A stretch of DNA of 64,000 nt from the NCBI GenBank assembly GCA_040326155.1, contig JBEQLE010000007.1, forward strand, positions 16,990 through 80,989. Direction: 5' to 3'. Position numbers and translations under genes: made by a program. The DNA is from Leptospirales bacterium (GTDB lineage: Bacteria > Spirochaetota > Leptospiria > Turneriellales > JAOUFE01). Below, one piece after another: positions 25,110-49,871 of this stretch. Under the pieces are notes generated by a model that was given only the letters and a program-made list of their open reading frames with translations, was not told the origin of the DNA and ran no database searches. Numbering within the stretch: position 1 is the stretch's first letter; every line of letters starts with the position of its first letter.

Positions 25110-25137
25110 TAGACATTATAAATAATCAGGAATATAA

Positions 25138-26987: not shown

Positions 26988-26999
26988 ATAAATTCCTTA

Positions 27000-28118
27000 T
27001 TATTTAGCTTTCTGCAAATATATTTTTATTTCTGTACCGTGATCTTCATTAGATTCATCTGTTTCATTGATTTCTGTCGAACTCACATCAAGGCTGCCCC
27101 CGTATAAGTTTATAAATTGTTTCACCAGAGGCATTCCAAAGCCCGTACCTCTTTCTTTTTCAGTACCAGGTCTGGAAGTTTTTTTGGTGACATCAAATAT
27201 ATCAACTAGAAATTCACTCGGCATTCCAATGCCATAGTCTTTAATGCTTATACATATTTGGCCAGAAGAGTTTTCAGGCTCATCAATCAATTCTTTTATT
27301 TCAATTTTCGAATCAGGAAAACTAAATTTTACAGCGTTCGTGAGCAAGTTATTGACCACTGTGTTTATAAAAGAAGTTCGCTCAACTGAAACTGTCGTGT
27401 TTTCTGAAACATTCATCTCTACCTTTATATTTTTCTTCTCTAATTTGAACTTAACAAGACCCAATGATACATGAAGCATATCCAATAACCCTTCGGAACT
27501 CATGGCGGGCTTGTATTTTTCTTCGTTAATGGCCATCATTTTTCTGGTAAGTTCGATGACTTCTAATCCATTATCTACTGCTTTTTCTATTAATGGTTTC
27601 ATTGAATTTATTGTACCAGGGTCATCATTATCCAAATCCAGGATCATTTTCACCTGTCCGACCGGATTTAATAAATCATGGCATAAAATATGTAATAAAC
27701 TTTTGCGGTCTTCGCTTATTTTACGAATGGCATCGCGGTTATTTTTTATCTCAATATGCGTTTTAATTCGAGCTAACAATTCAACTTCTTGAAACGGCTT
27801 TGTAATATAATCTTGAGCCCCAAGTTCAAAACCTTTGACAATATCTTCTGACTCGGTTTTAGCGGTTAAGAATATAATAGGCGTATCTACGGTATCCGGT
27901 CTTTTTCTAATAATCGAACAAGCTTCATAGCCATCCATTACCGGCATCATAATATCAAGAAGTATTAAAATGGGAGATAGTTTATCGAGAAGTTTAATTG
28001 CTTCTTTTCCATTTTTGGCGATTGCTATACTATATTCTTTTTTTTCAAGAATTGTTGCCAGAACCTGAATGTTTTTTGCATTATCATCGACAATTAATAT
28101 ACAAACATCTTTTTTCAT
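27000..28118 (-). CDS. REC-histidine kinase
   Basis: REC plus H-box LCHDLLNP, N-box NLLTNAVKFS, DYGIG, GTGFG. Confidence 0.92.
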   Translation of the reverse strand: MKKDVCILIVDDNAKNIQVLATILEKKEYSIAIAKNGKEAIKLLDKLSPILILLDIMMPVMDGYEACSIIRKRPDTVDTPIIFLTAKTESEDIVKGFELGAQDYITKPFQEVELLARIKTHIEIKNNRDAIRKISEDRKSLLHILCHDLLNPVGQVKMILDLDNDDPGTINSMKPLIEKAVDNGLEVIELTRKMMAINEEKYKPAMSSEGLLDMLHVSLGLVKFKLEKKNIKVEMNVSENTTVSVERTSFINTVVNNLLTNAVKFSFPDSKIEIKELIDEPENSSGQICISIKDYGIGMPSEFLVDIFDVTKKTSRPGTEKERGTGFGMPLVKQFINLYGGSLDVSSTEINETDESNEDHGTEIKIYLQKAK

Positions 28119-28120
28119 AA

Positions 28121-29167: not shown

Positions 29168-29731
29168 AATTTAACCAATCTCTGGGAAATATTAATTAAC
29201 CGGGCTGGTTTGCAAGTAGTTTTTGGGTTTCCCTTCATCGTTCGGGGGGAGTTAGTTGCCCGTATTTCCTGTGTACATAAACAAAAATTCCTGCAAAAAG
29301 TAAAGCTGATAAATAGAGCTTGCATTGTACGTGAGTTTCTTCTTCGAGAACAATAAAGGGTACACAACGTCAGATAATAGCCCAAAATAGTATGTCGATC
29401 ATATGACACTTCAGAATCAATGCAGGAACAATGAGAATTAAACCTAAAAATTATAAAGACAATCAATTTTCTTGTGACCTAACAAGAAGGGAATTAGGTC
29501 AGCGGTGGGTTACGAACGTGTGGCGAAAGAAGTTTTGAAAGTACATTGGTCACTCCAGAGCGATGTTGTTTAGAAAATGAGGATGAACCATCGAAACATG
29601 CCTACAGGGAATTGTTTTAAATCACATCAAACTATTTTAGTAAAGGGGTAGGATCTTTAGTGGCATCTTGAAAGTCTCATTACTAATCTATCTCAATCCG
29701 ACTTTAATTTGTTTTCGTATGTAACTTCATT

Positions 29732-32293: not shown

Positions 32294-33012
32294 TTATTCA
32301 GAATATTCTTTACTCATATCAATGACTATTCTGCCTGTGGCTTTATGCGCCGCAAGATGTTTCAGGGCATCTTTCAACTCTTCGAATTTCAATGGTATGA
32401 CTCTATCAAATGGAATTTTAATATCATGTTGAATGACGAAACTCAACATTTCATCAATGATCGTTGAAGGAGCCTTCTCGGAAAACTGATATGTTGGACC
32501 TTTTACTTTTGGTAGTCAATGATAAAATCAGCTCCGTTAGACTTTACCGCTGCCACATTTCTTGTGCTGCACAAACTTGTCACAATTGCGCCTTTCGCTT
32601 TTAACATTTGAACAACTACACTGCCAATACCACCGGAGGCTCCGAGAACTAAACATTGATCACCTTTTTTGATTTCTGAATACAAGATCATTCCATAAGC
32701 AACGCAACCGGCAATGATCATGGCGACGACTTCTTGATGAGATAATTCCGTTGGCTTTAATCGGATGTGTTTCTTGTCTAAACATCTATACGTTGCCCAT
32801 GACCCATGTTCATCTGTTGTGCCTGGGATACCAATCACTTCATCGCCAATTTTAAATTCAGTAACCTTTTCGCCTTTTGCAATTATAACTCCTGAAAAAT
32901 TGGAACCCATAACATAAGCATTTTCTTTCGAAACCTGCTTGGGGCCATAGAATCTTCCAAGCGCTGTACCCTGAGCTAATGCAATATCATCCACATGAAG
33001 TGTGGATGCCAA
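32294..33012 (-). pseudogene. MDR/quinone-oxidoreductase-like dehydrogenase remnant, copy 2
   Basis: GSNFSG, FKIGDEV, LVLGASGGIG, GADFIIDY; N-terminus missing, stop after DYQK, C-terminus (ATGRIVIDM) in another frame. Confidence 0.85.
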
Positions 33013-33439
33013 TGTAGTAAAAAAGCATCGAATATAAAATAACGGCTATCGTGAACATTCCGTATTGAAACGATAGGCCTTTACCCGCGATCGCTATTCC
33101 AAAGCTGCACAGCAAAGCCAAAGTCGTCAAGGCGATACCTCTTGCGGCCAATTTAATCGCTGGGTTCATCGGTGTCACCATTTGCGCTTGCATCACGTTT
33201 TGATTTTTATCGTATAACACCAACACGCCCGTGAACATAAAACCCATCATCACGGGATCCGAAAAAACGGTCAAAATGATCAAGTCATCATAGTGCAAGT
33301 TCAGTATATAAAATATCGCCGTATAGGTTCCCGCGATAAAAATACTCATTGTGACGATCGGGTAACGGGCGATCAGTATAAATTCCCATTTGATCGACGA
33401 GAGAAGGTTTTGCCAGTTTTGCAACACCAGGGTTTTCAT
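33013..33439 (-). pseudogene. ABC transporter permease, 3'-truncated (fluoroquinolone-export type)
   Basis: DPVMMGFMFTGVLVLYDK..VTP motif; fused to the dehydrogenase remnant. Confidence 0.75.
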
Positions 33440-34247
33440 AACAACGCCTGCCCGGTGGTTTCGATAAAAACCTGGTCTAAGCTGGCCTCTTCCGTATGTA
33501 TGGTGCGAATATCTTGTTTGTTTAATAGGTCTGCAAATTCTTTATTGTGACCGAGATCTTTCATGTCGAATTTTTTTACTTTTATTTTTTCACCAGAATT
33601 TAAATATTCGACTTTAATCGTTTTTTTACCATAGCGCAGTTTGAGCTCTTGAGCTCTTGAGGTGAATCGATGAGTTTTATTTCTCCGTCGATCAAAAAAG
33701 CTACCTCGTCGCAAAGTTCGTCAGCATCAATCATGTTGTGCGTGGTCAAGAAAATCGTTTTGCCCCGAGATTTTAGATCTAGAATAATATCTTTGATGTT
33801 GCGCGCATTCGATGGGTCAAGACCCGAAGTCGGTTCATCGAGGAATAGAACCTCTGAGTCGTGTAACAAAGCGCGAACAAAGTTTAGACGCATTTTCATG
33901 TCTTTGGAGTACTCGGCGACTTTCCGATCTTTGTCTGCTGAAAGTCCGACCATATCTAGTAACTCGATACCTTTGTATTTTGGTTTTTCATACAAAGAAG
34001 AAAACAGTTCGAGGTTCTCCAGAGTGCTCAGTTTCATGTAGTGATTTGGCAACTCAAAAAAGACACCAATTTTGTTAAACACCTCCCTGCCCCATTGTTC
34101 GAGACTTTTGCCCAGCATCGAAACCGAACCGCTAAAGCCGTCTAAAATTTGCCGGGTAAGTATGGCCTGCGTCGTACTTTTCCCAGAGCCGCTTGGCCCC
34201 AGAAATCCAAATATCTGTCCGACCCCCACAGAAAAATCAAAACCTTT
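33436..34247 (-). pseudogene. ABC transporter ATPase pseudogene
   Basis: GPSGSGKST, LFLDEPTSGLDP; 5' end lost, signature YSKDMK (G to D), frameshift from an 8-bp duplication (ttgagctc x2, 33641-33656). Confidence 0.88.
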
Positions 34248-37822: not shown

Positions 37823-40800
37823 TCACTGTCTTTCCACGAAATACATATCTAATTCCCCTTTATTTTTAGCTTTTATTTTTCCTCTTGAAGTATAATTAAA
37901 ACTTTCGGGAACCAGACTACGTACTGTAGCAGATACATTGACCTTTCCTTTCTCTCCTGAACTCTCAATTCTGGATGCAATGTTGACAGTATCTCCCCAT
38001 ATGTCATAGGCGAATTTTTTTAAACCGACGACACCGGCCACAACCGAACCGCTGTGAATGCCTATTCTGGCAGAAAACCCGGTCTCTCCTTTTTCTTTTT
38101 TGGAGACCATGTAAGAGTCCAAAAAGTCTCGTATATCAAGCCCGGCATTTATAATGTCTTGTGCATGATTATCCGTTTCAACCGGAAGACCGCTGGCGCA
38201 CATATAAGCATCCCCGATTGTTTTTATTTTTTCAATGCCATACGATTCGATGATCATATCAAATTTACTAAAGCAGGTATCAATTTCATACACCAATTCA
38301 TGCGGGCTCATTAGCTCTGAAATTTTGGTAAAATCGATAAAATCTATAAACATAATAGATGCATTTTCATATTTTTTAACTCGCGCTTTGCCATACTTTT
38401 TTAATTCATTGGCAGTTTCTTCTGGAAGAATATTCAGTAATAAATCATCAGATTTTTTCTTTTCAATCTCAATTTCTTTGGTTCTTGTTTTTACTTTTTC
38501 TTCGAGATTTTCATATAACATGGCATTGTTGATGGAAACTGCAATTTGCCCTGAAAGCAGTTTTAACAATTCGAGGCGATTTTCAGAAAAGGCTTGTTCA
38601 ATAAGATTGTTTTCCAGATATAACATGGCATTAATTTCGCCAAAATGCTTTATTGGCAAACACAGAACAGACTTGGTGCCAGCGCTCTGGATATAAGTAT
38701 CCCTTCCAAAAAGTTTGTCTGTGGTGGCATTGCCCACTACAACGATTTCCCCGGTTCGCGCACAAAACTGCACAATAGAATCAGCCAAAGAGTTTTCCTG
38801 CTTTTCAGAAATTGCTAATAATTGTATACGATCTTCTTTAACCTCAGCCCCTGCAAATACTTTGAAACCCGATTCGTTTTTAATTAAAATAAAACCCCTG
38901 CTCGCGCCTGCATTTTCCAGAGATATCTCCAGCAAATCAGAAGCAAGTTTGTCAAGTAGAAGTGAGCGGCTGATCACCTCTGAAGCTTTTAGTACGGTTT
39001 GTATGTCAAGAGATGAAAACCCCGTACTCGTACTTGTCGATAAACCTTGCTGATCGCCTGGCAAGTTGTCTGTAGCGATAACGTTTTTAGGTGAGACTTC
39101 TTTTTTATACAACGTAGAAATCATCTCGGGCAGCAAGTCGCTGCCCCAGGTCTCATATTTTGATTTAGCGATGCTCTGGTACTCGATGGATTTTTTATCG
39201 CTTTTGTTGTTCTTGTAAAAGTCGGCGAGCCTTTCGCAAATCATTGCTTCAATATGAATATAGTTGTTTTTTTCAGCTGCTTTGATGGCATCTTTATAAA
39301 GCTCTTCTGCGATGCTGTTTTTACCTTGGTACCTTGCGAATTCAGCGTCCATCAATAGAGTAAAGTGCAAAAGATTTTCACCTGCAAAGTCGGCAAGTTT
39401 TTGCAACTTTTTGAAATCTTTTTTAACTTTATTTAAATTCGATTTTTTTTGAACAGTTGAATTTTCAGAGATATAGACAATTCTTGAAAAACAATTGTAT
39501 GCAAAATAGAGTGTGGTGAACATTGTTCCCGGAACACTTGCCAGGTGTTTTTCCATTTCATCGGCGTACATCGTCGCTGTGTGGTATTGTTTAAAGTGTA
39601 CAGCAAGAATCAGTTTACTGATAAATAATTGAGCCAGCTCTGCGAGTTGGTTACTCTTTTTTAAAGCAGGAATCATATCTTCTTCATTGTAGTGCTCCCC
39701 CAATAATACCCAAGGGGTTTGGCTCTTTGATTTAAAATTTAGTACAACCTGGTGCCATAGATGCAACTTACTAAGAACTGATTCTTGATTCAATTTTGAT
39801 ATAATCTCGTTATATTTGGCTATGTCTTGGAGCAGAGGTTCCAGAGGATCTCCGCAGAAAAAACGGGTATAAGTCGTTCCTAGAATTGACCAGGATGTAT
39901 ATTCAAAATCTCCCGTTTCCAGTCCGGTTTTATAGGCTTCCATCAAAAGGGGAATAGTTTCTCTCGGGTGTAGTTTTAGATGCTTTATAAATGAATAAAC
40001 AGAGAAAATTGTCTTTGTTTCAATGAAACGGGTATCGTATTTTTCCAAAATTCCAAGTGCGAGATCGCTAAATGCATATCCTTTGGCAAGCTTTCCCAGA
40101 ATGCCTGACAAGATCAATCCGTAATTCGCATAGGCAAAGGCCGACAGAGGGCTATTCCCTTTTTTGGCAGATAATTCAACCTGGCGCATGACAAATATGG
40201 GCATAAGTGGCGGCAAACTTATATAGGCTGCAGAAAATACCCCTGTCATGATTCTCATCGCAGCCAGAGTTTCAGGACTTTTCATCTCAGGAATAGTTGC
40301 CAATTTTTCAACAGGGTACTTTCTTAAAATAAAATGCGTTCTTACAATGGCCTTTAACACATCAAGATTACCCGGTTTTTTGGGAAACTTTTGTCCCAGT
40401 ATATTCAAGGCAGCAACGGCTACTTGAACAGCTTCAAAGAGTAAATTCTGGGCAATGAGCGCTTCAATTCGTATTTCATAGGCAGCGACTTTGTCAATAT
40501 TAGCTTGAGAATTTTTTTCTAAAATAGTCGTATATTCGTCCATGGAGGAGTAATCTGCGCAGTACAGGGAGCTTTGAGCCGCATAACGGTATAGGTTAAA
40601 AACAGACTCGTAGTGATGTTTCCAGTCAGAACTATCCAGAAGCGAGATCGCTGTTTGACAATATTGTAGACAAGCGCTGAATGCGTTACAAGAGTCGGCT
40701 TTCTTCGCTGCGGCGAGATTCAATTCTATCAGTTCATATTTTTCAACCTCCTTGCTGACGAGATCTTTAGCATGGTTATACTGATTCACAATATCAAACA

Positions 40801-42988
40801 GATATTCGCTACGTTTCTGGTCGTCGTACATTTTCATGTACAAACGGGCGAGTTTCAAATGAGACTTTTTTTGATTCTCTGGCGTCATTATAGAATACGC
40901 CGCTTGCTGAATCCTGTCATGGGCAAACACATACTCTACATTAAGTTCACCACCGGATTCATCTCCAAGATCAATCCCGGCATCAGAAAACCGGTAATAG
41001 TCCCCCTTGGGTATTATCATTCCTTCTGTTATGACTTTTTTAAGATAGCTGGCGACTCGAACAGGTTCCCTGTCAATAAGACTCGCCAGGGTCGCAAGGT
41101 TAAATGTACTCCCAATCACAGCTGCAATGGAGAGTGTTTGCTGGTTGATTTTGGGTAGAGAGTTTACTTTCTCTGTAATGAAATCAAGTACATTGTCAGT
41201 AACATTCGATGCGACAATTTGTTCTAGTTCAATCTTCCATATATAATCGTCAGCAATAAAATGAATCAAACCTGATGCATGTATCGATTTAAAAAACTCA
41301 TTCACAAAAAATGGATTTCCATTTGTTTTTTGTATTATAATTTCCGCAAGTTGCTCCGCCTCGGATGATTCACATCGTATGGAGTTTGAAATTAAGTCAT
41401 TTACGCCACTCTTATCGAGTGGTCCGACTTCTATATAATCAGGATGTATTCCAAGTCCGGCTAGCTCATGGAGAGTTGACATTAAAATATGGTTCTGGTC
41501 CACCTCGTTATTACGATAAGCTCCGATAATCATCAAACCGGTTTGAGATGCTGAACTCATTAATGATTTGATCAACTTGAGTGATGCTGAATCCGCCCAT
41601 TGCAGATCGTCAAAAAACATAACAAGGGGTTTTCCGGGGCGTGAAAAAACTTGAATCAGATTCTGAAAAACCAACAGAAAACGATTTTGTGTTTCTTGGG
41701 AAGAGAGCTCCGGAACGGGTGGTTGATCTCCCAGAATAAATTCAGATTCCGGAATGACGTCAACGACAATCCGGCCATTTGAACCCAGTGCCTCCAATAA
41801 TTTAATTTTCCATTCGTTGATCTCTGTCGCATTGAGTAGTAACAACTGTAGAAACAAGTCACGCAGGGATTCAATCACAGCCGCATAGGGCAGATCTTTT
41901 TTATACTGGTCATATTTGCCCTGGACAAAATACCCGTTATGCAAGGTAAGTGGCTGATGAATTTCATGAATTAGAGAAGTTTTACCAATCCCTGATAATC
42001 CGGTTACCAGCAGCAAACGGGGATCCCCCTCTATTACTTCATTGTATACAGCAAGAAGAGATGCTATCTCTTTCTCCCGTCCAAAAAGACGCTGTGATAT
42101 CATAAATATATTCGCGGTATCATGACGGCCTACCTCAAAAGGCTCGTCAATTTTATCAGATTCAAAATTTTTCAGAATTTTTTCGATATCATACTCCAGA
42201 CCTTCTGCGCTCTGATATCGATCTTCCGGGTTTTTTTCTAATAGTTTGATTATTACTTGAGAAATTACCAGGGGAATATTACTATCAACCTCATGTGGTG
42301 GTACCGGAATTTTGGCAATATGGGAATGTATTGTCTGCATGGGATCATCAAATACAAAAGGAGGTTTTCCACAAAATAGTTCATATAAAGTAGCGCCAAC
42401 AGAATAGAGGTCACTTCGAAAATCCACAGATCGGTTGATTCTACCGGTTTGCTCGGGCGAAATGTAATACACAGAACCGCCCAACCTATCAAAGGCGCTG
42501 AAGTTAACTGTCTCGCGGGTTAAAAAACCAGACAGACCAAAATCAGTAACTTTTAACTCTTTTCGATCATAATTAAATATTAAATTGGAAGGCTTGATGT
42601 CTTTATGTAAAATTCCAAGCTCATGTAATTTTTTTGTTATATTTGCTAGAGAAAGAGATAATTCAATTTTTCGTAGCATTGTAAAATCTGCTTCAAAGTC
42701 CCAGGCATTTAACGCCTTGCCCCCGGGGTTCTCTTTTACCAGAGCCCATTGGTTGCCATGTTGTTCTACCGAAATAACTTTGACGACTTCAGGGATTTTT
42801 ATTTCTCGGGTGATAGCATATTCATATTTTAATATGGCAATATCTTCTTGCCGGGGATTTTCCTGTTTGAGTAATTTTATGATTACTGAAGAACCTGTCG
42901 TTTCTTGAATTCCCTCGTAGACATCCGCAATGGGACCTTCAAATATTTTTTTTTGTAAAATACAATTTCCGATTGTAAGTTCTTCCAT
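37823..42988 (-). CDS. Ser/Thr kinase-AAA/STAND ATPase-TPR-like-GAF-adenylate cyclase
   Basis: HKDIKPSN, DFG, YISPEQTGR; GLSGIGKT, FDDLQWAD; GAF SVLCLPI..LYLEN; KTIGDAYM, YDIWGDTVNIASR. Confidence 0.92.
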   Translation of the reverse strand: MEELTIGNCILQKKIFEGPIADVYEGIQETTGSSVIIKLLKQENPRQEDIAILKYEYAITREIKIPEVVKVISVEQHGNQWALVKENPGGKALNAWDFEADFTMLRKIELSLSLANITKKLHELGILHKDIKPSNLIFNYDRKELKVTDFGLSGFLTRETVNFSAFDRLGGSVYYISPEQTGRINRSVDFRSDLYSVGATLYELFCGKPPFVFDDPMQTIHSHIAKIPVPPHEVDSNIPLVISQVIIKLLEKNPEDRYQSAEGLEYDIEKILKNFESDKIDEPFEVGRHDTANIFMISQRLFGREKEIASLLAVYNEVIEGDPRLLLVTGLSGIGKTSLIHEIHQPLTLHNGYFVQGKYDQYKKDLPYAAVIESLRDLFLQLLLLNATEINEWKIKLLEALGSNGRIVVDVIPESEFILGDQPPVPELSSQETQNRFLLVFQNLIQVFSRPGKPLVMFFDDLQWADSASLKLIKSLMSSASQTGLMIIGAYRNNEVDQNHILMSTLHELAGLGIHPDYIEVGPLDKSGVNDLISNSIRCESSEAEQLAEIIIQKTNGNPFFVNEFFKSIHASGLIHFIADDYIWKIELEQIVASNVTDNVLDFITEKVNSLPKINQQTLSIAAVIGSTFNLATLASLIDREPVRVASYLKKVITEGMIIPKGDYYRFSDAGIDLGDESGGELNVEYVFAHDRIQQAAYSIMTPENQKKSHLKLARLYMKMYDDQKRSEYLFDIVNQYNHAKDLVSKEVEKYELIELNLAAAKKADSCNAFSACLQYCQTAISLLDSSDWKHHYESVFNLYRYAAQSSLYCADYSSMDEYTTILEKNSQANIDKVAAYEIRIEALIAQNLLFEAVQVAVAALNILGQKFPKKPGNLDVLKAIVRTHFILRKYPVEKLATIPEMKSPETLAAMRIMTGVFSAAYISLPPLMPIFVMRQVELSAKKGNSPLSAFAYANYGLILSGILGKLAKGYAFSDLALGILEKYDTRFIETKTIFSVYSFIKHLKLHPRETIPLLMEAYKTGLETGDFEYTSWSILGTTYTRFFCGDPLEPLLQDIAKYNEIISKLNQESVLSKLHLWHQVVLNFKSKSQTPWVLLGEHYNEEDMIPALKKSNQLAELAQLFISKLILAVHFKQYHTATMYADEMEKHLASVPGTMFTTLYFAYNCFSRIVYISENSTVQKKSNLNKVKKDFKKLQKLADFAGENLLHFTLLMDAEFARYQGKNSIAEELYKDAIKAAEKNNYIHIEAMICERLADFYKNNKSDKKSIEYQSIAKSKYETWGSDLLPEMISTLYKKEVSPKNVIATDNLPGDQQGLSTSTSTGFSSLDIQTVLKASEVISRSLLLDKLASDLLEISLENAGASRGFILIKNESGFKVFAGAEVKEDRIQLLAISEKQENSLADSIVQFCARTGEIVVVGNATTDKLFGRDTYIQSAGTKSVLCLPIKHFGEINAMLYLENNLIEQAFSENRLELLKLLSGQIAVSINNAMLYENLEEKVKTRTKEIEIEKKKSDDLLLNILPEETANELKKYGKARVKKYENASIMFIDFIDFTKISELMSPHELVYEIDTCFSKFDMIIESYGIEKIKTIGDAYMCASGLPVETDNHAQDIINAGLDIRDFLDSYMVSKKEKGETGFSARIGIHSGSVVAGVVGLKKFAYDIWGDTVNIASRIESSGEKGKVNVSATVRSLVPESFNYTSRGKIKAKNKGELDMYFVERQ

Positions 42989-43474: not shown

Positions 43475-46400
43475 CTATAAATATTTTTTCATTATAGCAA
43501 TTTCATCGGGAAATTTTCGAAGTGTGATATTAATGCCTTCTGTATCATACATCGATGCATGTTTTAATAATTTTTGAGCCCATCCTTGAATCGAGGGGTA
43601 TTCATATTTCTCAGAAGTTTCCATAATATCCGTAGCAAACTTTTTAATGTCGTTGATAATAATGCCATCTGATAAAGACTTCCATTGATTATAAAAGTCA
43701 CCTTCCATTTGTTCTATGAGCTTAGGTAACATCTTTTTTGTTTCTATAGAAATCTCAAATGTAGACTCAACAACATCGGCTGATTCTTCAGGTTCGGAAT
43801 CTGATTCTTTGTACGGCAAATACTTCATTAAAGTGTGAAACAGTTGATCTCTAGTGAAGGGTTTATGTAAAGAATCGTCGGTGACTTTATTTATATCTGA
43901 AGAGCTTGGTACAATCGTTGAAGCTGTCACAGCAACAATGGGAATACTGTGTGTATTTTTATCTTCCTTAATTTTCAAAGTGGCATTATAACCGTTCATT
44001 ACCGGCATTTTCATATCCATCAAAATCAAATTTGGCTTTTCGTTTGTAGCAGCCTCCCATGCCTGTTGACCATTTTCAACCTCAATAAGTATTAAATTCG
44101 TTTCCTGTAAATAACCCTTGATTAAATCACGATTACTTTTAATGTCATCAGCCACGAGCACAGTGGCTTTTTCAAATGTTATCGAAGAATAATTGATCGG
44201 TGGTTTTGTATTTTCGATTACGGATGCATCTGAAATTTCGACATCATGTAGCGTTACTGAAAAGGTCGACCCTTTACCCAATGTACTTTGCAGATTAATT
44301 TCTCCCCCCATCAGATTGACCAAACGAGTGGTGATGGCAAGACCCAAACCGGTTCCCCCATACTCCTTATTATTTTGTCCCTCATTTTGTACAAAGGCAT
44401 TGAAGATTAATTTTTGTTGGTTATCCGGTATTCCGATACCAGTGTCTTCCACACGAATGAGCAAGTCGATATACTTTTTCTTTTCTTTCTTTGTGATGTT
44501 ACCTTGTTGGGATACCATTATTTTGATATAGCCATCTTCCGTAAATTTCATGGCATTGCCAATGAGGTTTAACAAAACTTGTCGAACCCTGGTCTCATCC
44601 AAAATGACATTACCTGGCAAATTCTCATCTATATCGATCTCAAATGCCAAAGTTTTTTCTAACATTTTTTGTAAGAAAACTTGCTTTATATCTAAAAATA
44701 TTTGTTCCAGGTTAACTGGTTCTTTTTGAACATTTAATTTCCCAGCTTCGACTTTTGAAAGATCAAGTATATCGTTGATTAAATGCAATAACGTTTTACC
44801 AGATGATGCTATGGAAGAAACATATTCTTTGATCGTTTCATCTTTTACCATCCCGCCCAATATTTCTGTAAAACCCAAAATGGCATTCATGGGTGTTCGT
44901 ATCTCATGACTCATATTGGATAAAAATTCCGACTTGGTCTGATTTGCCGCCTCGGCCTGTTGTTTGGCATGTTCCAATTGTTCCTGGGTCTTTTTCAAGG
45001 CCTCAATATCCGTTATTACGGCGACCATACCGAGAAAATTGTCATTGTCATCATAAAGAAATCTTGCAGAGTTTCTGGCCACCATAATCGACTTATCTTT
45101 TCTTATAAAATGATTCTCGTTAATAATATCAGGCAGGCGTACTCCGGTTTTTGCCATCTGTATAGCCCCATCAAACCGCTTACGGTCTTCTAGATTTTCC
45201 CAATGAGTACTACTGGGTTTGCCAATCATCTCTTCCACAGTATACCCTAACATTTCGAGGCCTTTTTGGTTCACATAAGTATACAACCCATTTTCATCAA
45301 GTGTTACAACACCCTCATTCATGGTTTCTACAATGCCGCGATATTTCATCTCTTGATCGGCAATTTTTTTCAAACTCTTTTCTAGTTCTATTTTTTGCAA
45401 AGCTTGTTTTGTCATGTCTATAGTGACACCATGCATACGAACATTTTTTCCTTTGTCGTCTTGTTCAAACTCTGAGAGGGAGTGTACATATTTCAGTTCA
45501 CCATCGGCAGCGATGATACGGTATTCTGCATCATTCTGGCCATGAATTTTATAGCTTTCTTCAAATGATTTGACATGCGCTTGAACATCGTCGGGATGAA
45601 CGAACTTTTGATATGCCTCATTATCTGGTGGTGTTTCTCCTACGGTTAACCCAAACAATCTGTACATTTGATCAGACCATGTTGATGAATTGGTACGCAT
45701 GTCCCATGTCCAGTCTCCCATATTAGCAATTTCCTGGGCTCGGGCTAGGCTGTGACGACTTTCTTCCAGTTCTTTTTCTACTTTTTTGCGTTCTGTTAGA
45801 TCGCGAATCATAACCATATCGGCGGGCAATCCTTTTAAATCAATAATAGAAGCGTTCACCTCGACGGGTATACTATCCCCATTATTATTCTTGAAATCCA
45901 GTTGATAAATACTGGGTACTTTCTTTCCTGACATTCGATCTGCATATCTCTTGGCAACCAACTCTCGACTGGAGTCAGCAACATATTGCATAAATTCAGA
46001 TTCCAACAACTGCTCTTTTCTATATCCAAGCAACTGTGAAGCGGAATCATTTACAAAAAGAACCTTCCCATCTTGAAGAATAAGAATTGTATCCTTTGAC
46101 TTTTCGATGAGAGTTGAATATTTATTTTCTTGTTCTGCAAGCTTTTGTAAGCTATTTTCAAGTTCTTGTTTTTGTTGTTCTTGTTTGGTGATATCATCGA
46201 AGATGCAGACAGCACCCATTTTAATACCTTTGATGACGAATTCATTCACAGAAAAATTTACAAATTGTTGATGATTCGGCAATGGGCAAAAATCTCCCGT
46301 GTATTTACCGCTTGATTCCTTTCCGGAAATAATATTAACAATCAACTCGGCCATAACAGTACCTGATTCTGTTTCTTTCAAATGATCAATGGCACTGATT

Positions 46401-47134
46401 CCAATAAGAGAATGATTGTTTGCACCATCCAAAACTTTCGGTGCCGTCTTGTTATAATCAATAATGATGCCATCATTGTTCACCACAATCATAGCCAAAG
46501 GAGCATTCTGAAAAATGCTCTGAAAATAAGTAAAAGAATCCAGTGTTTGCAAAGCTTCTTTTGGTTTCATTCTTTGGGCGTAGTCCATGGAAATAAAGCG
46601 ACTTCGAATAACACCATTAGTATCAATAATAAAAGTGGCAGGCACCGGAAGGTTCCAACTATGATCCGCATTTTGTTTCGCCAGATCGACCTTAAATTTT
46701 TCTTGATAAATCTGCTTAAGCTCAGGAGTAAAGGTGAATTGAATTTTATAATCTTGAATTACTTTTTGTTCAGGATCGCTTAAAACTTCAAAATGCAAAT
46801 CCATTTGCGTTGCCAGTTTTCTTGCATGTGCAACATCCTGGGGGCTAATGGCAACGAGAGTGCCACCGGAGGCGGAAATTTCATTTTGTATGGCGTGGTA
46901 GCCTTCCAGTTCTTCGGAACAATACTCGCACCAATCCCCCCGAAAAAACGATAAAATAACCGGTCCCTTTTTTAAAAAGTCATGCAGGCATACTTCTTTG
47001 TTATTGGAGTTTTGCAAACAAAAATCGGGCGCAACGTCTCCAATCTGAAGCCCTGGCGCTATATTTGTTGCTTCAATTTTCTTTAGTTCGGCGGCAACGC
47101 TTGTTTGTTTGCCCGATGTTTTTTTAGAGGCCAT
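43475..47134 (-). CDS. Hybrid histidine kinase with N-terminal peroxiredoxin-like (AhpC/TSA) domain, four PAS domains, HisKA, HATPase and REC
   Basis: GDVAPDF..GPVILSFFRGDWCEYC..LVAISPQ..VLSD..LPVPATFIID; FLSNMSHEIRTPMN; NLIGNAMKFT; GGTGLGL; LILMDMKMP. Confidence 0.9.
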   Translation of the reverse strand: MASKKTSGKQTSVAAELKKIEATNIAPGLQIGDVAPDFCLQNSNNKEVCLHDFLKKGPVILSFFRGDWCEYCSEELEGYHAIQNEISASGGTLVAISPQDVAHARKLATQMDLHFEVLSDPEQKVIQDYKIQFTFTPELKQIYQEKFKVDLAKQNADHSWNLPVPATFIIDTNGVIRSRFISMDYAQRMKPKEALQTLDSFTYFQSIFQNAPLAMIVVNNDGIIIDYNKTAPKVLDGANNHSLIGISAIDHLKETESGTVMAELIVNIISGKESSGKYTGDFCPLPNHQQFVNFSVNEFVIKGIKMGAVCIFDDITKQEQQKQELENSLQKLAEQENKYSTLIEKSKDTILILQDGKVLFVNDSASQLLGYRKEQLLESEFMQYVADSSRELVAKRYADRMSGKKVPSIYQLDFKNNNGDSIPVEVNASIIDLKGLPADMVMIRDLTERKKVEKELEESRHSLARAQEIANMGDWTWDMRTNSSTWSDQMYRLFGLTVGETPPDNEAYQKFVHPDDVQAHVKSFEESYKIHGQNDAEYRIIAADGELKYVHSLSEFEQDDKGKNVRMHGVTIDMTKQALQKIELEKSLKKIADQEMKYRGIVETMNEGVVTLDENGLYTYVNQKGLEMLGYTVEEMIGKPSSTHWENLEDRKRFDGAIQMAKTGVRLPDIINENHFIRKDKSIMVARNSARFLYDDNDNFLGMVAVITDIEALKKTQEQLEHAKQQAEAANQTKSEFLSNMSHEIRTPMNAILGFTEILGGMVKDETIKEYVSSIASSGKTLLHLINDILDLSKVEAGKLNVQKEPVNLEQIFLDIKQVFLQKMLEKTLAFEIDIDENLPGNVILDETRVRQVLLNLIGNAMKFTEDGYIKIMVSQQGNITKKEKKKYIDLLIRVEDTGIGIPDNQQKLIFNAFVQNEGQNNKEYGGTGLGLAITTRLVNLMGGEINLQSTLGKGSTFSVTLHDVEISDASVIENTKPPINYSSITFEKATVLVADDIKSNRDLIKGYLQETNLILIEVENGQQAWEAATNEKPNLILMDMKMPVMNGYNATLKIKEDKNTHSIPIVAVTASTIVPSSSDINKVTDDSLHKPFTRDQLFHTLMKYLPYKESDSEPEESADVVESTFEISIETKKMLPKLIEQMEGDFYNQWKSLSDGIIINDIKKFATDIMETSEKYEYPSIQGWAQKLLKHASMYDTEGINITLRKFPDEIAIMKKYL

Positions 47135-47285
47135 AGTGGTAATCCTGTTTCACTTGCTTCTTTAGTAGATGTTACATCAAGCAATTATTTTCCTGGGTCA
47201 CGGCTTCAGGCGCAAAGACAACTTTCTATAATTGCCTTTATAAATTTTATTGACGCGTCAACCTGACCAAAGTAGGTTCAACCCT

Positions 47286-49871
47286 ATGGCAAAAGACACT
47301 GCAAACCCGAAGCCCGGCGGACCGCGCCCGCAAATTTTCATCAGTTACGCGCACAAAGACAACGACCCGGAAACATCTGAAGTTTTGTGGCTGAATCGCG
47401 TTCTGGATCACCTGACGGTTTTACAACTCCAGGATAAGACGACCCTTTGGACAGATAAGAACATCAAACCGGGCCAGGAATGGCACAACGAGGTTAACAC
47501 AGCGTTAGAGTCGGCAAATGTTGCCCTTTTGTTGATCAGCCAACATTTTATCGGTTCGGAGTTCATTCAAAACAGCGAGTTACCGGTTTTACTCCGAAGG
47601 GCAAAAGATGAAAAAAGTCTAACTATCATTCCCATTCATATCCGCGCATGTAACTGGGAGCTTGTCGAATGTAATTATCCCGACCCGAGAAATGGACCAA
47701 ATATTTTTTTATTGAGTGACTTTCAAAGCGCCAACAAACCGCATAAACCATTCAACGTCCTTGACGAAGGTGAAGTAGATAGAATATTAAAAGAGATTGT
47801 TCGCCAAGTGGCAGAAGTCCTGAAAAACATCGGCCCCACTGCACTCGCCCAACCCCAACCCAAATCGGTCCACCACAACCTGCCCTGGGAGAAAAACCCC
47901 TGGTTTACCGGCCGCGCCAAAGAGCTCGCTGCTATTCAAACGCAACTCGTCCAAACTCAAAAAGCCGCTATTTACGGAATCGGCGGCGTCGGAAAAACAC
48001 AAACGGCTGTGCAGTATGGCTATAACCACTTGGACGACTACAACCACATTTTCTGGGTTCGCGCCCAGAACGAAAATGATATTCTCGACGGCTACGGCCA
48101 GATTGCAACGATACTCGGTCTTGGTGTCGCAAGCGAGGCCAACATTGAACACCGCGCCAGGGTCGTTAAAGCCCATCTTGAAAACCCCGAGGCGATTCAA
48201 GACTACCTTGTCATCTACGATAACGGCGACGACGTAGCGCCGGTCGAAACCTGGCGGCCCCACAACGCGGGTCATATATTGCTCACCTCGCGTGCCACAA
48301 ACTTTGACAAGCTCAACATTGTCTCTCCTGTTGAGATTAAAACTCTGCCCCCGGATGACGCCAAAACATTTTTATTAAAACGGGCCGGCATCGACTTAGA
48401 AAAATTAAGCAAGCAAGAACACAGCACAGTAAAGAGCCTTGTTCAAAAACTCGACGCCCTGCCGCTGGCTTTGGAACAAGCCGGGGCTTATATAAAAGAA
48501 AAAAAAGTCAACATACAAACCTACGCCGAAGCCTATGAAAATCGCCGTTTGAAAATTCTGGAAAAAGGCAAAAAGCATCTTAGTACGCACCCCGAGTCGG
48601 TCGCCACCACATGGCTCTTAAACTTTGAGCAGATTAAAAAGAACGCAGCCGCCGCAGAGGTTCTCTATTTTAGCGCCTTTACCCAGCCCGATCAAATACC
48701 CTTTGAACTCTTAAGCACCGCCCCCGAAGAGATTGGCCCCGCCTTTACCAGGCTATACCAGGAAGAAGATGAACTTGCCGTAAACGAGGCGCTCTCTAAA
48801 ATCGAACGCTTTTCGCTGGTCAGAGTCGACCCCCAAGAGAAGAGCTACACAATTCACCGGCTCGTGCAAGAGGTGATTCGCTCGCAATTAAGCAACGATG
48901 AAAATGAAAACAAGCATTGGGCCGAACGTTTTGTGAAGGCATTTACTGAGGCTTTTCCAGAGCCTGATTTTGAAAACTGGGCCGGGTGTGAACGGCTGAT
49001 TGAACAGGCCCCGGCGCTCTTGCGGTGGGTAGAAGAGTTTGACCTGGAGTCTGCCGAGGCGGCTCGTAGTTTAAACCAGGTTGGTTACTATTTAAAAGAA
49101 AGAGGGCGCTACCAGGATGTGGAGGGATATTATCAAAAAGCACTTTCGATACACAAAAACACTCTGGGCGAAGAGCACCAAAATACAGCCACGAGCTTGA
49201 ATAACCTGGCAGACTTGTATATAACACAAGGGCGGTATGATGAAGCGGAACCTCTTTATAAGCAGGCTCTGGAGATTCGAAAAAGGTTATTTGGTCTGGA
49301 ACACACCGCTACGGCCACGAGTTTAAATAACCTGGCGGCTCTTTTTTATGTTCAAGGCCGGTATGATGAAGCCGAGCCTCTTTTTGCTCAGGTCGTGGAG
49401 ATACAAAAAAAAGTATCAGGTCTGGAACACCCCATTACAGCCACGAGCTTGAATAATCTGGCGTTGCTATATAAAACAGCGGGGCGTTATGATGAAGCCG
49501 AACCTCTCTATAAGCAGGCCTTGGAGATTCGAAAAAGGTTATTTGGTCTGGAGCATCCTGATATGGCCGCGAGCTTGAATAATCTGGCTGAGTTGTACCG
49601 AGTTCAGGACCGATATTCCGAAGCTGAGCCTCTCTATGAACAGGCTCTGGAGATTGATAGAAAGACGCTTGGACCGGAACACACCGATACAGCCACGGAT
49701 ATGAATAATCTGGCGAGTTTGTATGAGTCGCAGGGCCGGTATGATGAAGCCGAGCCTATGTATAAACAAGCAGTCGAGATTCTTGAAAAAAGCGTAGGGC
49801 CGGATCATCCCAATACCATTGCGGGTCATGAAAATTGGGAGCTTTGCCGGAAGAAGATGTCAGGTGAATAA
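47286..49871 (+). CDS. TIR-NB-ARC(STAND)-TPR NLR-like protein
   Basis: TIR IFISYAHKD..IKPGQEW..SEFIQNSELP; Walker A GIGGVGKT, Walker B YLVIYDN, LPLALEQAGAY, HRLVQ; six ~42-aa TPR units; start trimmed to MAKDTAN. Confidence 0.9.
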   Translation: MAKDTANPKPGGPRPQIFISYAHKDNDPETSEVLWLNRVLDHLTVLQLQDKTTLWTDKNIKPGQEWHNEVNTALESANVALLLISQHFIGSEFIQNSELPVLLRRAKDEKSLTIIPIHIRACNWELVECNYPDPRNGPNIFLLSDFQSANKPHKPFNVLDEGEVDRILKEIVRQVAEVLKNIGPTALAQPQPKSVHHNLPWEKNPWFTGRAKELAAIQTQLVQTQKAAIYGIGGVGKTQTAVQYGYNHLDDYNHIFWVRAQNENDILDGYGQIATILGLGVASEANIEHRARVVKAHLENPEAIQDYLVIYDNGDDVAPVETWRPHNAGHILLTSRATNFDKLNIVSPVEIKTLPPDDAKTFLLKRAGIDLEKLSKQEHSTVKSLVQKLDALPLALEQAGAYIKEKKVNIQTYAEAYENRRLKILEKGKKHLSTHPESVATTWLLNFEQIKKNAAAAEVLYFSAFTQPDQIPFELLSTAPEEIGPAFTRLYQEEDELAVNEALSKIERFSLVRVDPQEKSYTIHRLVQEVIRSQLSNDENENKHWAERFVKAFTEAFPEPDFENWAGCERLIEQAPALLRWVEEFDLESAEAARSLNQVGYYLKERGRYQDVEGYYQKALSIHKNTLGEEHQNTATSLNNLADLYITQGRYDEAEPLYKQALEIRKRLFGLEHTATATSLNNLAALFYVQGRYDEAEPLFAQVVEIQKKVSGLEHPITATSLNNLALLYKTAGRYDEAEPLYKQALEIRKRLFGLEHPDMAASLNNLAELYRVQDRYSEAEPLYEQALEIDRKTLGPEHTDTATDMNNLASLYESQGRYDEAEPMYKQAVEILEKSVGPDHPNTIAGHENWELCRKKMSGE

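What the first reader, a model, noticed from the sequence alone, without database searches (positions are those of the whole stretch)
43475..47134. Peroxiredoxin-like CxxC domain fused to a four-PAS hybrid histidine kinase: candidate thiol-redox sensor
Seen: one 1219-aa ORF whose first ~200 aa (46535-47134) read as a complete AhpC/TSA peroxiredoxin-like domain with FFRGDWCEYC (C69/C72), continuing in frame into four PAS domains, HisKA, HATPase, REC and a helical tail; no TM segment. Known: this Prx-like family usually occurs as a standalone protein with WCPYC, and known redox-sensing kinases (ArcB, RegB) use other mechanisms. Inference: a cytoplasmic kinase whose activity is gated by the oxidation state of a fused thioredoxin-fold domain. 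I know of no characterised example.
Basis: partly seen in the sequence, partly recalled or inferred. Interest (0 to 1): 0.8.

Follow-up and report, generated by a model that had tools for sequence, protein, structure and literature searches.

The report
Thiol-switch domain fused to sensor kinase
A bacterial signalling kinase carries at its front end a thioredoxin-type domain with two reactive cysteines; the same fusion recurs in a small unstudied protein family, so it is a good candidate for a new kind of built-in sensor of the cell's thiol and oxidant state.

Summary
Window 43475-47134 (-) is one uninterrupted 1219-aa ORF with this domain order:
- AhpC/TSA-fold domain (aa 31-178, WCEYC at C69/C72)
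- four PAS domains
- HisKA (H743), HATPase and REC (D1040)
- a helical tail with no family match

It has no membrane segment.

The fusion is not an assembly artefact. Twelve protein clusters carry the same Prx-like domain in front of histidine-kinase domains. They come in three architectures: Prx-DHp-CA, Prx-PAS-DHp-CA(-REC), and the long multi-PAS form. Whole-genome searches found the long form in four spirochaete-type genomes of two families.

All 12 clusters keep the CxxC and a Glu three residues after it. Eleven of the 12 sit in one 13-row subclade of the Prx-like tree.

The domain is not a working peroxiredoxin by motif. Cys replaces the Prx Thr and Arg replaces the Prx Pro. It resembles the CxxC "PRX-like2" and ResA type.

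The best reading is a cytoplasmic thiol-disulfide switch that gates the kinase through the helix joining it to PAS1 or DHp (confidence about 0.5, biochemically untested). My six literature searches for such a fusion found no description of it.

The parts
43475..47134 (-). Whole gene: 1219-aa cytoplasmic hybrid histidine kinase with an N-terminal Prx-like CxxC domain (P0001)
   Evidence: ORF list and translation; Pfam architecture; no hydrophobic segment
46538..47053 (-). Prx-like (AhpC/TSA fold, PRX-like2/ResA-like) domain, aa 28-199
   Evidence: Pfam AhpC-TSA 1.8e-27. AlphaFold2 pLDDT 95-98 over this part. Foldseek best matches are BcpB 5epf and Bcp4 3hjp with target TM 0.87-0.92. PDB profile hits are BCP 2ywn/2cx3 and ResA.
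46919..46930 (-). CxxC motif C69-E70-Y71-C72 at the N-cap of helix 70-81, followed by E75
   Evidence: CxxC and the Glu at +3 are kept in 12 of 12 kinase-fused clusters. C72 aligns with the peroxidatic Cys of BCP and C69 with the Prx Thr. Helix position is from DSSP.
46988..47020 (-). N-terminal beta-hairpin carrying a second Cys pair, C39 and C49
   Evidence: Strands 39-41 and 47-49 in the model. Both Cys are present in 6 of 12 kinase-fused clusters, against 1 (P0023) of the other proteins aligned.
46514..46564 (-). Junction helix aa 191-207 running from the Prx-like domain into PAS1, with the conserved YF[QE] junction
   Evidence: Helix H191-207. The junction is conserved in 7 PAS1-bearing clusters. 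It is the core of the predicted dimer interface.
46175..46528 (-). PAS1, aa 203-320 (divergent); C310 lies at the predicted dimer interface
   Evidence: Pfam PAS 4.2e-5 when scanned alone. PAS-like strands and helices in the model. Interface residues 309-311. Cys at this column in 4 of 7 PAS1-bearing clusters.
45785..46123 (-). PAS2, aa 338-450
   Evidence: Pfam PAS 338-431; TIGR00229 333-456
45410..45727 (-). PAS3, aa 470-575
   Evidence: Pfam PAS_3 485-570
44990..45346 (-). PAS4, aa 597-715
   Evidence: Pfam PAS_9 607-710 and PAS_8 597-653
44741..44935 (-). HisKA/DHp, aa 734-798, with H-box SHEIRTP (H743)
   Evidence: Pfam HisKA 1.6e-20; motif position
44246..44599 (-). HATPase_c catalytic domain, aa 846-963 (N box at 856, G1 at 897, G2 at 927)
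   Evidence: Pfam 2.1e-26; motifs
43832..44161 (-). Receiver domain, aa 992-1101 (D996/D997, D1040, VAVTA from residue 1067 holding the conserved Thr, and HKPF from 1090 holding the conserved Lys)
   Evidence: Pfam Response_reg 1.3e-18; motifs
43478..43747 (-). C-terminal helical bundle, aa 1130-1219, no family and no conserved His (not a canonical HPt)
   Evidence: No Pfam hit at E up to 10 apart from a chance-level one. Five helices with block pLDDT 81-93 in a model built on only 4 sequences. Alignment with P0002, P0003 and P0158 shows no conserved His.
27000..28118 (-). Possible downstream partner: REC-controlled histidine kinase (REC + HATPase, 372 aa), inside a three-gene REC operon at 25890-29167
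   Evidence: Best own-genome match (53% identity, E 1.4e-122) to the REC-HATPase gene that directly follows the Prx-kinase in G001. Pfam of the trio: REC-cyclase, REC-HATPase, REC-HD. Partnership is inferred, not shown.

Best explanation
The gene encodes a soluble, dimeric hybrid histidine kinase whose primary input module is a thioredoxin-fold, Prx-like domain with a redox-active CxxC (C69/C72).

Proposed mechanism (inferred):
- The CxxC cycles between dithiol and disulfide. The driver could be cytoplasmic oxidants or thiol-disulfide exchange with the cell's thiol pool or a partner protein.
- The change at the N-cap of the active-site helix passes through the Prx-like domain's C-terminal helix. 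That helix is continuous with the PAS1 cap in this protein, and with the DHp helix in the short relatives.
- This alters the dimer geometry and so the autophosphorylation at H743.
- The three further PAS domains integrate other signals.
- Phosphate then goes to the protein's own receiver (D1040) and probably on to a REC-controlled kinase or other REC proteins.

Shown here: the architecture, its conservation, the conserved cysteines and the fold. Inferred: the redox switch, its coupling to kinase activity, and the partners.
For: 1. The fusion is real and recurrent.
- Of the best 150 of 7810 representative hits, 9 are Prx-like plus histidine-kinase proteins.
- A profile search of longer proteins adds 3 more, P0151 to P0153.
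- Long-form orthologues occur in G001 and in G065 and G104.

2. In five clusters of 463-471 aa the Prx-like domain is the only domain in front of the kinase core. About 45 helical residues link it to the H-box. It therefore sits where sensor domains sit.

3. The CxxC and the Glu at +3 are kept in 12 of 12 fused clusters. The family's other invariant residues (R65, G66, W68, D120, P163, P165, A166, T167, R188) are kept in 9 of 9. The active site is thus under selection and has not decayed.

4. The fused domains cluster on the tree. All 12 lie in a 32-row clade (SH-aLRT 96), and 11 of 12 lie in a 13-row subclade. They also carry traits that are rare in stand-alone members:
- an acidic residue before W68 in 8 of 9, against 25 of 145;
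- P121 in 8 of 9, against 20 of 145;
- R179 in 7 of 9, against 22 of 145;
- the C39/C49 pair.

5. The AlphaFold2 model of aa 1-335 has pLDDT 92.6 and pTM 0.85, with one helix (191-207) bridging the Prx-like domain and PAS1.

6. The homodimer test of aa 1-335 passed.
- Score 0.63, best of 3 controls 0.00.
- The mark was reached by 20 of 30 proteins solved as pairs of one chain and by 1 of 23 solved as single chains.
- Runs agree in at least 92% of contacts, and partner pLDDT is at least 83.
- My own alignment was used, so these counts hold only roughly.
- The interface is the junction helix, the PAS1 sheet and helix 315-333, plus Prx residues 57, 88-91, 169 and 177-178.
- PAS dimers have been solved, so the pass may partly be from memory.

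7. No membrane segment was found.
Against: - No experiment or expression data exist, and no sequencing run could be listed.
- The domain lacks the Prx Thr and Pro. By pattern it has a Pro where Prx enzymes have the catalytic Arg (the Arg position is recalled). Fast direct reaction with peroxide is therefore doubtful, and the physiological oxidant is unknown.
- The CxxC itself is not named in the predicted dimer interface.
- The tree needs at least 4 changes of the kinase label. P0008 sits apart, and two short proteins (P0043, P0013) nest inside the fused clade.
- The second Cys pair and C310 are each kept in only about half of the family.
- The protein has three more PAS domains, any of which could be the dominant sensor in this long form.
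Confidence: 0.5

Rival explanations
1. Direct peroxide receptor. C72 sits at the position of the peroxidatic Cys. It would react with H2O2 or an organic hydroperoxide to give a sulfenic acid, which C69 resolves to a disulfide. The kinase would then be a dedicated peroxide sensor, a fused version of the peroxiredoxin redox relays of eukaryotes.
For: - C72 aligns with the peroxidatic Cys of BCP/PrxQ.
- The fold is closest to BCP and AhpE peroxidases, with target TM 0.87-0.92.
- An invariant Arg (R65) lies four residues before the CxxC in 9 of 9 fused and 142 of 145 other rows. It could activate the thiolate; this is inference.
Against: - The PxxxTxxC Pro and Thr are replaced by R65 and C69.
- The segment LPVPATF has a Pro where Prx enzymes have the catalytic Arg (pattern recalled).
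- Passages of PMC3514251 state that PRX-like2 proteins lack the typical Prx catalytic trait and have a thioredoxin-type CXXC.
- NCBIfam peroxidase models score far below their cut-offs: BCP 44.1 against 140.
Confidence: 0.2
2. The Prx-like domain is not the sensor. It would be a tethered enzyme or a docking or dimerisation module, for example one that reduces a client protein or recruits a partner. The signals would be read by the PAS domains.
For: - The long form has four PAS domains.
- The same Prx-like family is fused to many non-signalling partners: thioredoxin, MsrB/SelR, YceI, dienelactone hydrolase, ArsH-like and tandem copies. It therefore often acts as an enzyme module.
- Some Prx residues lie in the predicted dimer interface.
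Against: - Five clusters have no other domain in front of the kinase core.
- The active-site residues are fully conserved in the fused forms.
- The Prx-PAS1 junction is conserved as one cassette in 7 clusters.
Confidence: 0.15
3. Metal or iron-sulfur site. The four cysteines C39, C49, C69 and C72 would bind Zn or an Fe-S cluster, and the sensor would read metal or O2/NO status, as NreB or AirS do.
For: Four Cys lie within 34 residues. The extra pair is nearly specific to kinase-fused members: both Cys occur in 6 of 12 fused clusters, against 1 of the other proteins aligned.
Against: - Half of the fused clusters lack one or both extra Cys, including the orthologue P0002.
- C39 and C49 face each other across a hairpin, which suits a local disulfide better than a shared site with the CxxC.
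- No distance could be measured.
Confidence: 0.07
4. Assembly or annotation artefact that joins a stand-alone Prx-like gene to a kinase gene.
For: The contig comes from a draft genome of 171 contigs. No reads could be laid.
Against: - Collinear fusions with a conserved junction occur in three other genomes and in metagenome-derived clusters.
- There is no stop or frameshift.
- There is no sharp GC break at the junction: 0.36-0.44.
Confidence: 0.01

Closest known systems
Stand-alone PRX-like2 / SelL-related CxxC redox proteins (about 210-230 aa 'peroxiredoxin-like family protein')
   Same: - Same domain family: 36-49% identity to the best stand-alone hits.
- Same WCxxC motif and the same invariant R65, G66, W68, D120, P163 and T167.
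- The NCBIfam SelL_rel_redox profile is covered end to end, positions 2-172 of 173.
   Different: - Here the domain is fused to a kinase.
- The CxxC dipeptide is EY instead of the usual PY or PF.
- There is an extra Cys pair in the hairpin.
- The score is below the SelL_rel_redox cut-off (49.4 against 120).

The mechanism of the stand-alone family is itself called unclear in PMC3514251 (passages read). The CDD model cd02970 could not be run here, so the name PRX-like2 rests on recall plus that paper's description.
BCP/PrxQ and AhpE peroxiredoxins (PDB 5epf, 3hjp, 2ywn, 2cx3, 1xvw)
   Same: Closest solved folds and sequences. C72 aligns with their peroxidatic Cys.
   Different: - The Thr and Pro of PxxxTxxC are replaced.
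- A helical insert of about 30 residues is present at aa 130-160.
- These enzymes are free-standing and are not fused to signalling domains.
ResA / TlpA / CcmG thiol-disulfide oxidoreductases
   Same: - WCxxC with a Glu three residues after the second Cys, and a Pro-Thr loop before the next strand.
- ResA is the top NCBIfam hit and among the top PDB hits.
- The role of that Glu in ResA is recalled, not tested here.
   Different: Those are membrane-anchored extracytoplasmic reductases. This domain is cytoplasmic and scores 55.5 against a cut-off of 170.
Thiol-based redox-sensing kinases ArcB and RegB/PrrB; SenC/PrrC signalling to PrrB in trans (recalled)
   Same: What it would work like: kinase output set by cysteine oxidation. 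ArcB is also a PAS-containing hybrid kinase.
   Different: - In ArcB and RegB the cysteines lie in the PAS or DHp region of membrane kinases and respond to quinones.
- No thioredoxin-fold input domain is fused in them.
- The ArcB NCBIfam score is 274 against a cut-off of 838.
- SenC/PrrC is a separate Sco-type protein.
Peroxiredoxin/Gpx redox relays of yeasts (Tpx1-Pap1/Sty1, Orp1-Yap1) and engineered roGFP2-Orp1/Tsa2 probes (recalled; only search listings seen)
   Same: Same concept: a thioredoxin-fold thiol enzyme acts as the receptor and passes its oxidation state to a signalling protein.
   Different: Those work in trans or are man-made fusions. They use true peroxidases. Their outputs are transcription factors, MAP kinases or fluorescence.
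Lvr system of Leptospira: hybrid kinase LvrA plus REC-controlled kinase LvrB (PMC5863495, PMC13269768; listing and abstract starts only)
   Same: - In G001 and G065 the Prx-kinase is directly followed by a REC-HATPase gene.
- The G065 copy covers the LvrB profile end to end, positions 3-376 of 377.
   Different: - All scores are far below the cut-offs: LvrA 156.7 against 1200 and LvrB 86.3 against 500.
- In this window the REC-kinase lies 15 kb away.
- Whether LvrA has any Prx-like domain was not tested.

Membership tests
Peroxiredoxin (catalytically competent Prx; Pfam AhpC-TSA PF00578) | Sequence match to AhpC/TSA above the gathering score | tested here: met
   96.2 bits against a cut-off of 26, aa 31-178
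Peroxiredoxin (catalytically competent Prx; Pfam AhpC-TSA PF00578) | Prx/thioredoxin fold | tested here: met
   Model pLDDT 92.6; Foldseek target TM 0.87-0.92 to BcpB, Bcp4 and AhpE
Peroxiredoxin (catalytically competent Prx; Pfam AhpC-TSA PF00578) | PxxxTxxC active-site motif (Pro, Thr, peroxidatic Cys) | tested here: not met
   In the HMMER alignment to 2ywn and 2cx3, FyRGdWCpfC lies over FYPAAFTQVC. The Cys is kept (C72), Thr is replaced by C69, and Pro by R65.
Peroxiredoxin (catalytically competent Prx; Pfam AhpC-TSA PF00578) | Conserved catalytic Arg before the strand xTFxID | tested here: inconclusive
   The invariant segment is LPVPATFIID, with no Arg. The expected Arg position is recalled from BCP sequences and was not aligned residue by residue here.
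PRX-like2 (CDD cd02970) / SelL-related CxxC proteins | Thioredoxin-type CxxC whose second Cys lies at the Prx peroxidatic position; Prx triad absent | tested here: met
   alignment; description of the subfamily in PMC3514251 (passages)
PRX-like2 (CDD cd02970) / SelL-related CxxC proteins | Match to the curated model | not testable with these tools
   CDD is not available. The nearest NCBIfam model, SelL_rel_redox, gives 49.4 bits against a cut-off of 120.
Hybrid sensor histidine kinase | H-box His, N/G1/G2 boxes, and a receiver with the acidic pocket, phospho-Asp, Thr and Lys | tested here: met
   H743; N box 856, G1 897, G2 927; D996/D997, D1040, VAVTA from 1067, HKPF from 1090
Hybrid sensor histidine kinase | C-terminal HPt domain with a phospho-accepting His (tripartite type: ArcB, BarA, TorS) | tested here: not met
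   No HPt hit. No His is conserved among 4 aligned tails. The tail is a helical bundle of unknown family.
ArcB, BarA, TorS, LuxQ, LvrA equivalogs (NCBIfam) | Score above the curated cut-off | tested here: not met
   BarA 317.6 against 890, TorS 310.2 against 676.5, LuxQ 301.1 against 1200, ArcB 274.4 against 838, LvrA 156.7 against 1200
ResA / DsbE thiol-disulfide oxidoreductases | Score above the curated cut-off; extracytoplasmic anchoring | tested here: not met
   ResA 55.5 against 170 and DsbE 31.9 against 123; no signal or membrane segment

The most novel reading that the evidence does not exclude
These proteins would define a previously unrecognised family of cytoplasmic 'redoxin-kinases'. 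A thioredoxin-fold CxxC domain is the receptor and passes its oxidation state in cis to a histidine kinase, either directly through the helix into DHp or through a Prx-PAS1 cassette. In some members an interface cysteine (C310) may form an ArcB-like intermolecular disulfide. The family would be a natural bacterial counterpart of eukaryotic peroxiredoxin redox relays. It would feed a REC-controlled kinase cascade with second-messenger outputs.
Probability: 0.3. Interest if true: 0.75.

Novelty: new variant of a known kind. Interest (0 to 1): 0.58.

Why it matters
Known thiol-based sensor kinases use isolated cysteines in PAS or DHp regions. How a complete thioredoxin-fold redox module could drive a kinase has no studied example.

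The family offers a very simple test system: about 465 aa, soluble, Prx-like domain, one helix, kinase core. It could be used to study how disulfide formation is turned into a phosphorylation signal. It could also provide parts for genetically encoded redox biosensors.

It would also give the first functional handle on the large, uncharacterised PRX-like2 group of proteins.

Tried and rejected
- **Read support at the junction.** The look-up of sequencing runs listed no run, so none was listed and no RNA holder was listed.
- **The search for related loci on genome contigs.** The single protein query returned only a PAS1-level match in Crocinitomix algicola. This was not informative.
- **First word-index search.** One search found only P0002. 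The exhaustive representative search was needed.
- **ESM Atlas.** One search gave only generic PAS clusters.
- **HPt reading of the tail.** There is no Pfam match and no conserved His. No fold search of the tail model was run, because the receiver domain would dominate the hits.
- **Model coordinates.** They are not exposed to scripts. The distances C39-C49, C69-C72 and C310-C310' could not be measured.
- **Split-gene check.** A close stand-alone relative in G104 (227 aa) lies among dehydrogenase genes, not next to a kinase.
- **Promoter and terminator scan.** Nothing stood out: 19 promoter-like sites against 13.8 +/- 3.6 in shuffles, and 1 terminator-like site against 3.2 +/- 1.9.
- **Earlier notes of this scan.** There was nothing at this place or by sequence.
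- **Defence-system scan of the two neighbours.** PADLOC gave only generic TIR and kinase-domain matches.


Full report
**Observation.** Window 43475-47134 on the minus strand is a single ATG-initiated ORF of 1219 aa without internal stops. The frame is open for only five more codons upstream (1224-aa frame). The Prx-like part therefore cannot belong to an upstream gene.

Pfam gives these domains:
- AhpC-TSA at aa 31-178 (E 1.8e-27, 96.2 bits against a cut-off of 26) and Redoxin
- PAS families at 338-431, 485-570 and 597-715
- HisKA 734-798, HATPase_c 846-963 and Response_reg 992-1101

A fourth, divergent PAS (PAS1, about 203-320) just passes the Pfam PAS cut-off when scanned alone (24.0 against 22.6 bits). 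It folds as a PAS domain in the model.

The catalytic signatures are intact:
- H-box SHEIRTP with H743
- N box at 856, G1 at 897, G2 at 927
- receiver D996/D997 and D1040, with VAVTA from residue 1067 holding the Thr and HKPF from 1090 holding the Lys

The highest 19-residue hydropathy mean is 1.28, so there is no membrane segment.

**What the N-terminal domain is.** A profile of the fused domains finds BCP/PrxQ peroxiredoxins (2ywn 3.8e-21, 2cx3) and ResA (4nmu and others) as the nearest solved sequences. The AlphaFold2 model (pLDDT 92.6, pTM 0.85) superposes best on BcpB 5epf, Bcp4 3hjp (target TM 0.92), AhpE and ResA. These matches cover only the roughly 175 columns of the Prx part.

In the HMMER alignment, FyRGdWCpfC lies over the BCP motif FYPAAFTQVC. 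C72 occupies the peroxidatic-Cys position, C69 replaces the Prx Thr, and R65 replaces the Prx Pro. The invariant LPVPATF segment carries a Pro where, as I recall, Prx enzymes have their catalytic Arg and thioredoxin-like oxidoreductases have their cis-Pro.

No curated NCBIfam model claims the domain:
- ResA 55.5 against a cut-off of 170
- SelL-related redox protein 49.4 against 120, though covered end to end
- BCP 44.1 against 140

This fits the PRX-like2 group. Passages of PMC3514251 say this group lacks the typical Prx catalytic trait, has the thioredoxin CXXC motif, and is of unclear mechanism. The CDD model itself could not be run.

The domain is therefore better called a Prx-fold CxxC oxidoreductase-like domain than a peroxiredoxin.

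**The fusion is real and recurrent.**
- Representative search. An exhaustive HMMER search of 1.84 billion representatives with aa 1-335 gave 7810 hits at E up to 0.001, and the best 150 were listed. Of these, 109 are 262 aa or shorter, 6 are 263-300 aa, and 35 are longer than 300 aa. I scanned 34 of those 35 against Pfam; P0147 was not scanned. Nine are histidine kinases: P0001 to P0004, P0006, P0007, P0008, P0011 and P0018.
- Other fusions. The rest are tandem Prx-like repeats or fusions to thioredoxin, MsrB/SelR, YceI, dienelactone hydrolase, a polyketide-cyclase-like domain and, once, a Ser/Thr kinase (P0085).
- Profile search. A profile search restricted to longer proteins returned 9 proteins at E up to 1e-10. 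Seven carry kinase domains, and three of these are new: P0151 (a fragment on a 2.3-kb contig), P0152 and P0153. The search missed several fusions already known, so it is not a complete census.

Twelve clusters are known so far, in three architectures:
- Prx-DHp-CA, 463-471 aa, five clusters
- Prx-PAS1-DHp-CA with or without REC, 586 and 709 aa
- the long multi-PAS or GAF form, 1219-1288 aa

**Genomes.**
- Relatives. Among 61 genomes searched (relatives plus G000 itself), the long fusion is in G000 and in G001, which is of the same family but another genus (45% identity, 1309-aa frame). It was not found in the two other genomes of that family.
- Phylum sample. In a sample of 401 genomes it is in G000, G065 and G104, the last two from another family.
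- Taxon. Members of the P0003 cluster are labelled Spirochaetota MAGs by their source. P0003 appears to be the G104 gene, judged by contig and ORF length. Earlier notes of this scan call this genome spirochaete- or Leptospira-like (unchecked notes).
- Paralogue. G000 also has a stand-alone paralogue of 220 aa with 29% identity.

**Conservation and family-specific traits.**
- All 12 fused clusters keep the CxxC and a Glu three residues after it.
- The nine aligned in A2 keep the family's invariant R65, G66, W68, D120, P163, P165, A166, T167 and R188.
- The dipeptide inside the CxxC varies in the long forms: EY here, RY in P0002, HF in P0004, and PF, PV or PI elsewhere. By general knowledge of thioredoxin-fold proteins this dipeptide tunes redox potential (inference).
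- A second Cys pair, C39 and C49, lies on facing strands of the N-terminal hairpin (strands 39-41 and 47-49). Both residues are present in 6 of 12 fused clusters but in only one (P0023) of the other proteins aligned.
- On a maximum-likelihood tree of 154 domains, all 12 fused domains lie in a 32-row clade (SH-aLRT 96). Eleven of the 12 lie in a 13-row subclade that also holds two short proteins. P0008 lies apart, and the label needs at least 4 changes.
- This is compatible with one main origin followed by domain shuffling, but it does not prove a single origin.

**Structure and coupling.** In the model the Prx-like domain ends in a helix (191-207) that runs straight into PAS1. The junction motif YF[QE]-[SAN]-[IVF]-F is conserved in the seven PAS1-bearing clusters. 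In the short forms the same C-terminal helix is followed by about 45 helical residues and the H-box HEIKNLLNPI.

The complex test of two copies of aa 1-335 passed:
- Score 0.63, best of 3 controls 0.00.
- The mark was reached by 20 of 30 proteins solved as pairs of one chain and by 1 of 23 solved as single chains.
- Runs agree in at least 92% of contacts, and partner pLDDT is at least 83.
- My own alignment was used, so the counts hold only roughly.
- The interface is the junction helix 196-213, the PAS1 sheet, helix 315-333 and a few Prx residues (57, 88-91, 169, 177-178).

Solved PAS dimers look like this, so the pass may reflect likeness. The pass supports binding but does not show it.

Residues 88-91 end the helix pair that begins at the CxxC. 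This gives a plausible mechanical path from the redox site to the dimer interface (inference). C310 lies in the interface next to the two-fold contact, and this column holds Cys in 4 of 7 PAS1-bearing clusters.

**Tail and partners.** The last roughly 90 residues model as a helical bundle. The model was built on only four sequences; overall pLDDT is 80, and blocks in the tail are 81-93. The tail has no family match and no conserved His. It is therefore not a canonical HPt.

In G001 and G065 the gene directly downstream, after a gap of about 24 nt and 7 nt respectively, encodes a REC-HATPase protein. This is the 'Rec-controlled kinase' architecture whose prototype is LvrB (PMC13269768, abstract start only).

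The best match to the G001 protein in this genome (53% identity) is at window 27000-28118. That is 15 kb downstream on the same strand, inside an operon of REC-cyclase, REC-kinase and REC-HD genes.

All LvrA and LvrB scores are far below their cut-offs. The resemblance is of architecture only.

**Mechanism and rivals.**
- Best-supported reading: a cytoplasmic thiol-disulfide switch kinase, confidence about 0.5.
- A dedicated peroxide receptor is possible, but it is weakened by the missing Prx catalytic residues (0.2).
- A non-sensing enzyme or scaffold role is weakened by the short forms, which have no other input domain (0.15).
- A four-Cys metal site is weakened by loss of the extra pair in half the family (0.07).
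- An assembly artefact is excluded by the homologous fusions.

**Literature.** Six searches aimed at such a fusion found no paper describing a Prx-like or thioredoxin-fold domain fused to a histidine kinase, nor did a search on the PRX-like2 family itself. I judged this from listings only. A review of Leptospira oxidant defences has no mention of such a kinase in a term search.

Subscription journals and domain-architecture databases were not searchable, so 'undescribed' holds only for these searches. Earlier notes of this scan report a Prx-Ser/Thr-kinase fusion and a Trx/Prx-like membrane protein paired with a kinase in other genomes. These are unchecked leads which suggest that redoxin-kinase coupling recurs.

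**Verdict.** This is a real, conserved and rare architecture. It is a new variant of redox-sensing kinase with a clear and cheap experimental test. The function is inferred, not shown.

Noticed in passing
window 37823-42988 (-): The gene directly downstream of the kinase (486-nt gap, same strand) encodes a 1721-aa giant signalling protein: Ser/Thr kinase, AAA_16 ATPase, GAF and an adenylate/guanylate cyclase domain.
   Followed up: partly
window 47250-49871 (+): The divergent neighbour is an 873-aa TIR, NB-ARC, DUF7779 and TPR protein, a STAND-type architecture. PADLOC gives only TIR and TPR domain hits. Its GC is 0.47-0.52, against 0.32-0.44 in the kinase gene, which suggests foreign origin.
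   Followed up: partly
window 25890-29466 (-): A tight operon of three receiver-output proteins: REC-cyclase (365 aa), REC-HATPase kinase (372 aa) and REC-HD/HD_5 phosphodiesterase-like (348 aa). A 100-aa ORF without a family precedes them.
   Followed up: partly
window 32503-34229 (-): Short ORFs look like pieces of larger genes: an ADH_N fragment of 169 aa, a permease-like piece of 150 aa scoring below the family cut-off, and a 209-aa ABC ATPase. This may be a decayed or rearranged stretch between the REC operon and the kinase.
   Followed up: no
window 24708-25893 (+) and 30222-32132 (+): An Rrf2-family regulator lies next to a TauE/SafE sulfite-exporter-like gene. Further along is a 7TMR-DISM membrane kinase with HisKA_3.
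   Followed up: no
P0085, P0110, P0127, P0154 (relatives, not in the window): The same Prx-like family is also fused to a Ser/Thr kinase domain (P0085), to thioredoxin plus MsrB/SelR, and to an ArsH-like flavoprotein. The family appears to be a frequent fusion partner.
   Followed up: partly
L023 (G104:C288) 1456-2139 (-): A 227-aa stand-alone WCPYC protein very close to the kinase-fused clade (E 3.8e-74) sits among short-chain dehydrogenase, quinone-oxidoreductase-like and DNA-glycosylase-like genes. It is in the same genome that has a long fusion.
   Followed up: partly
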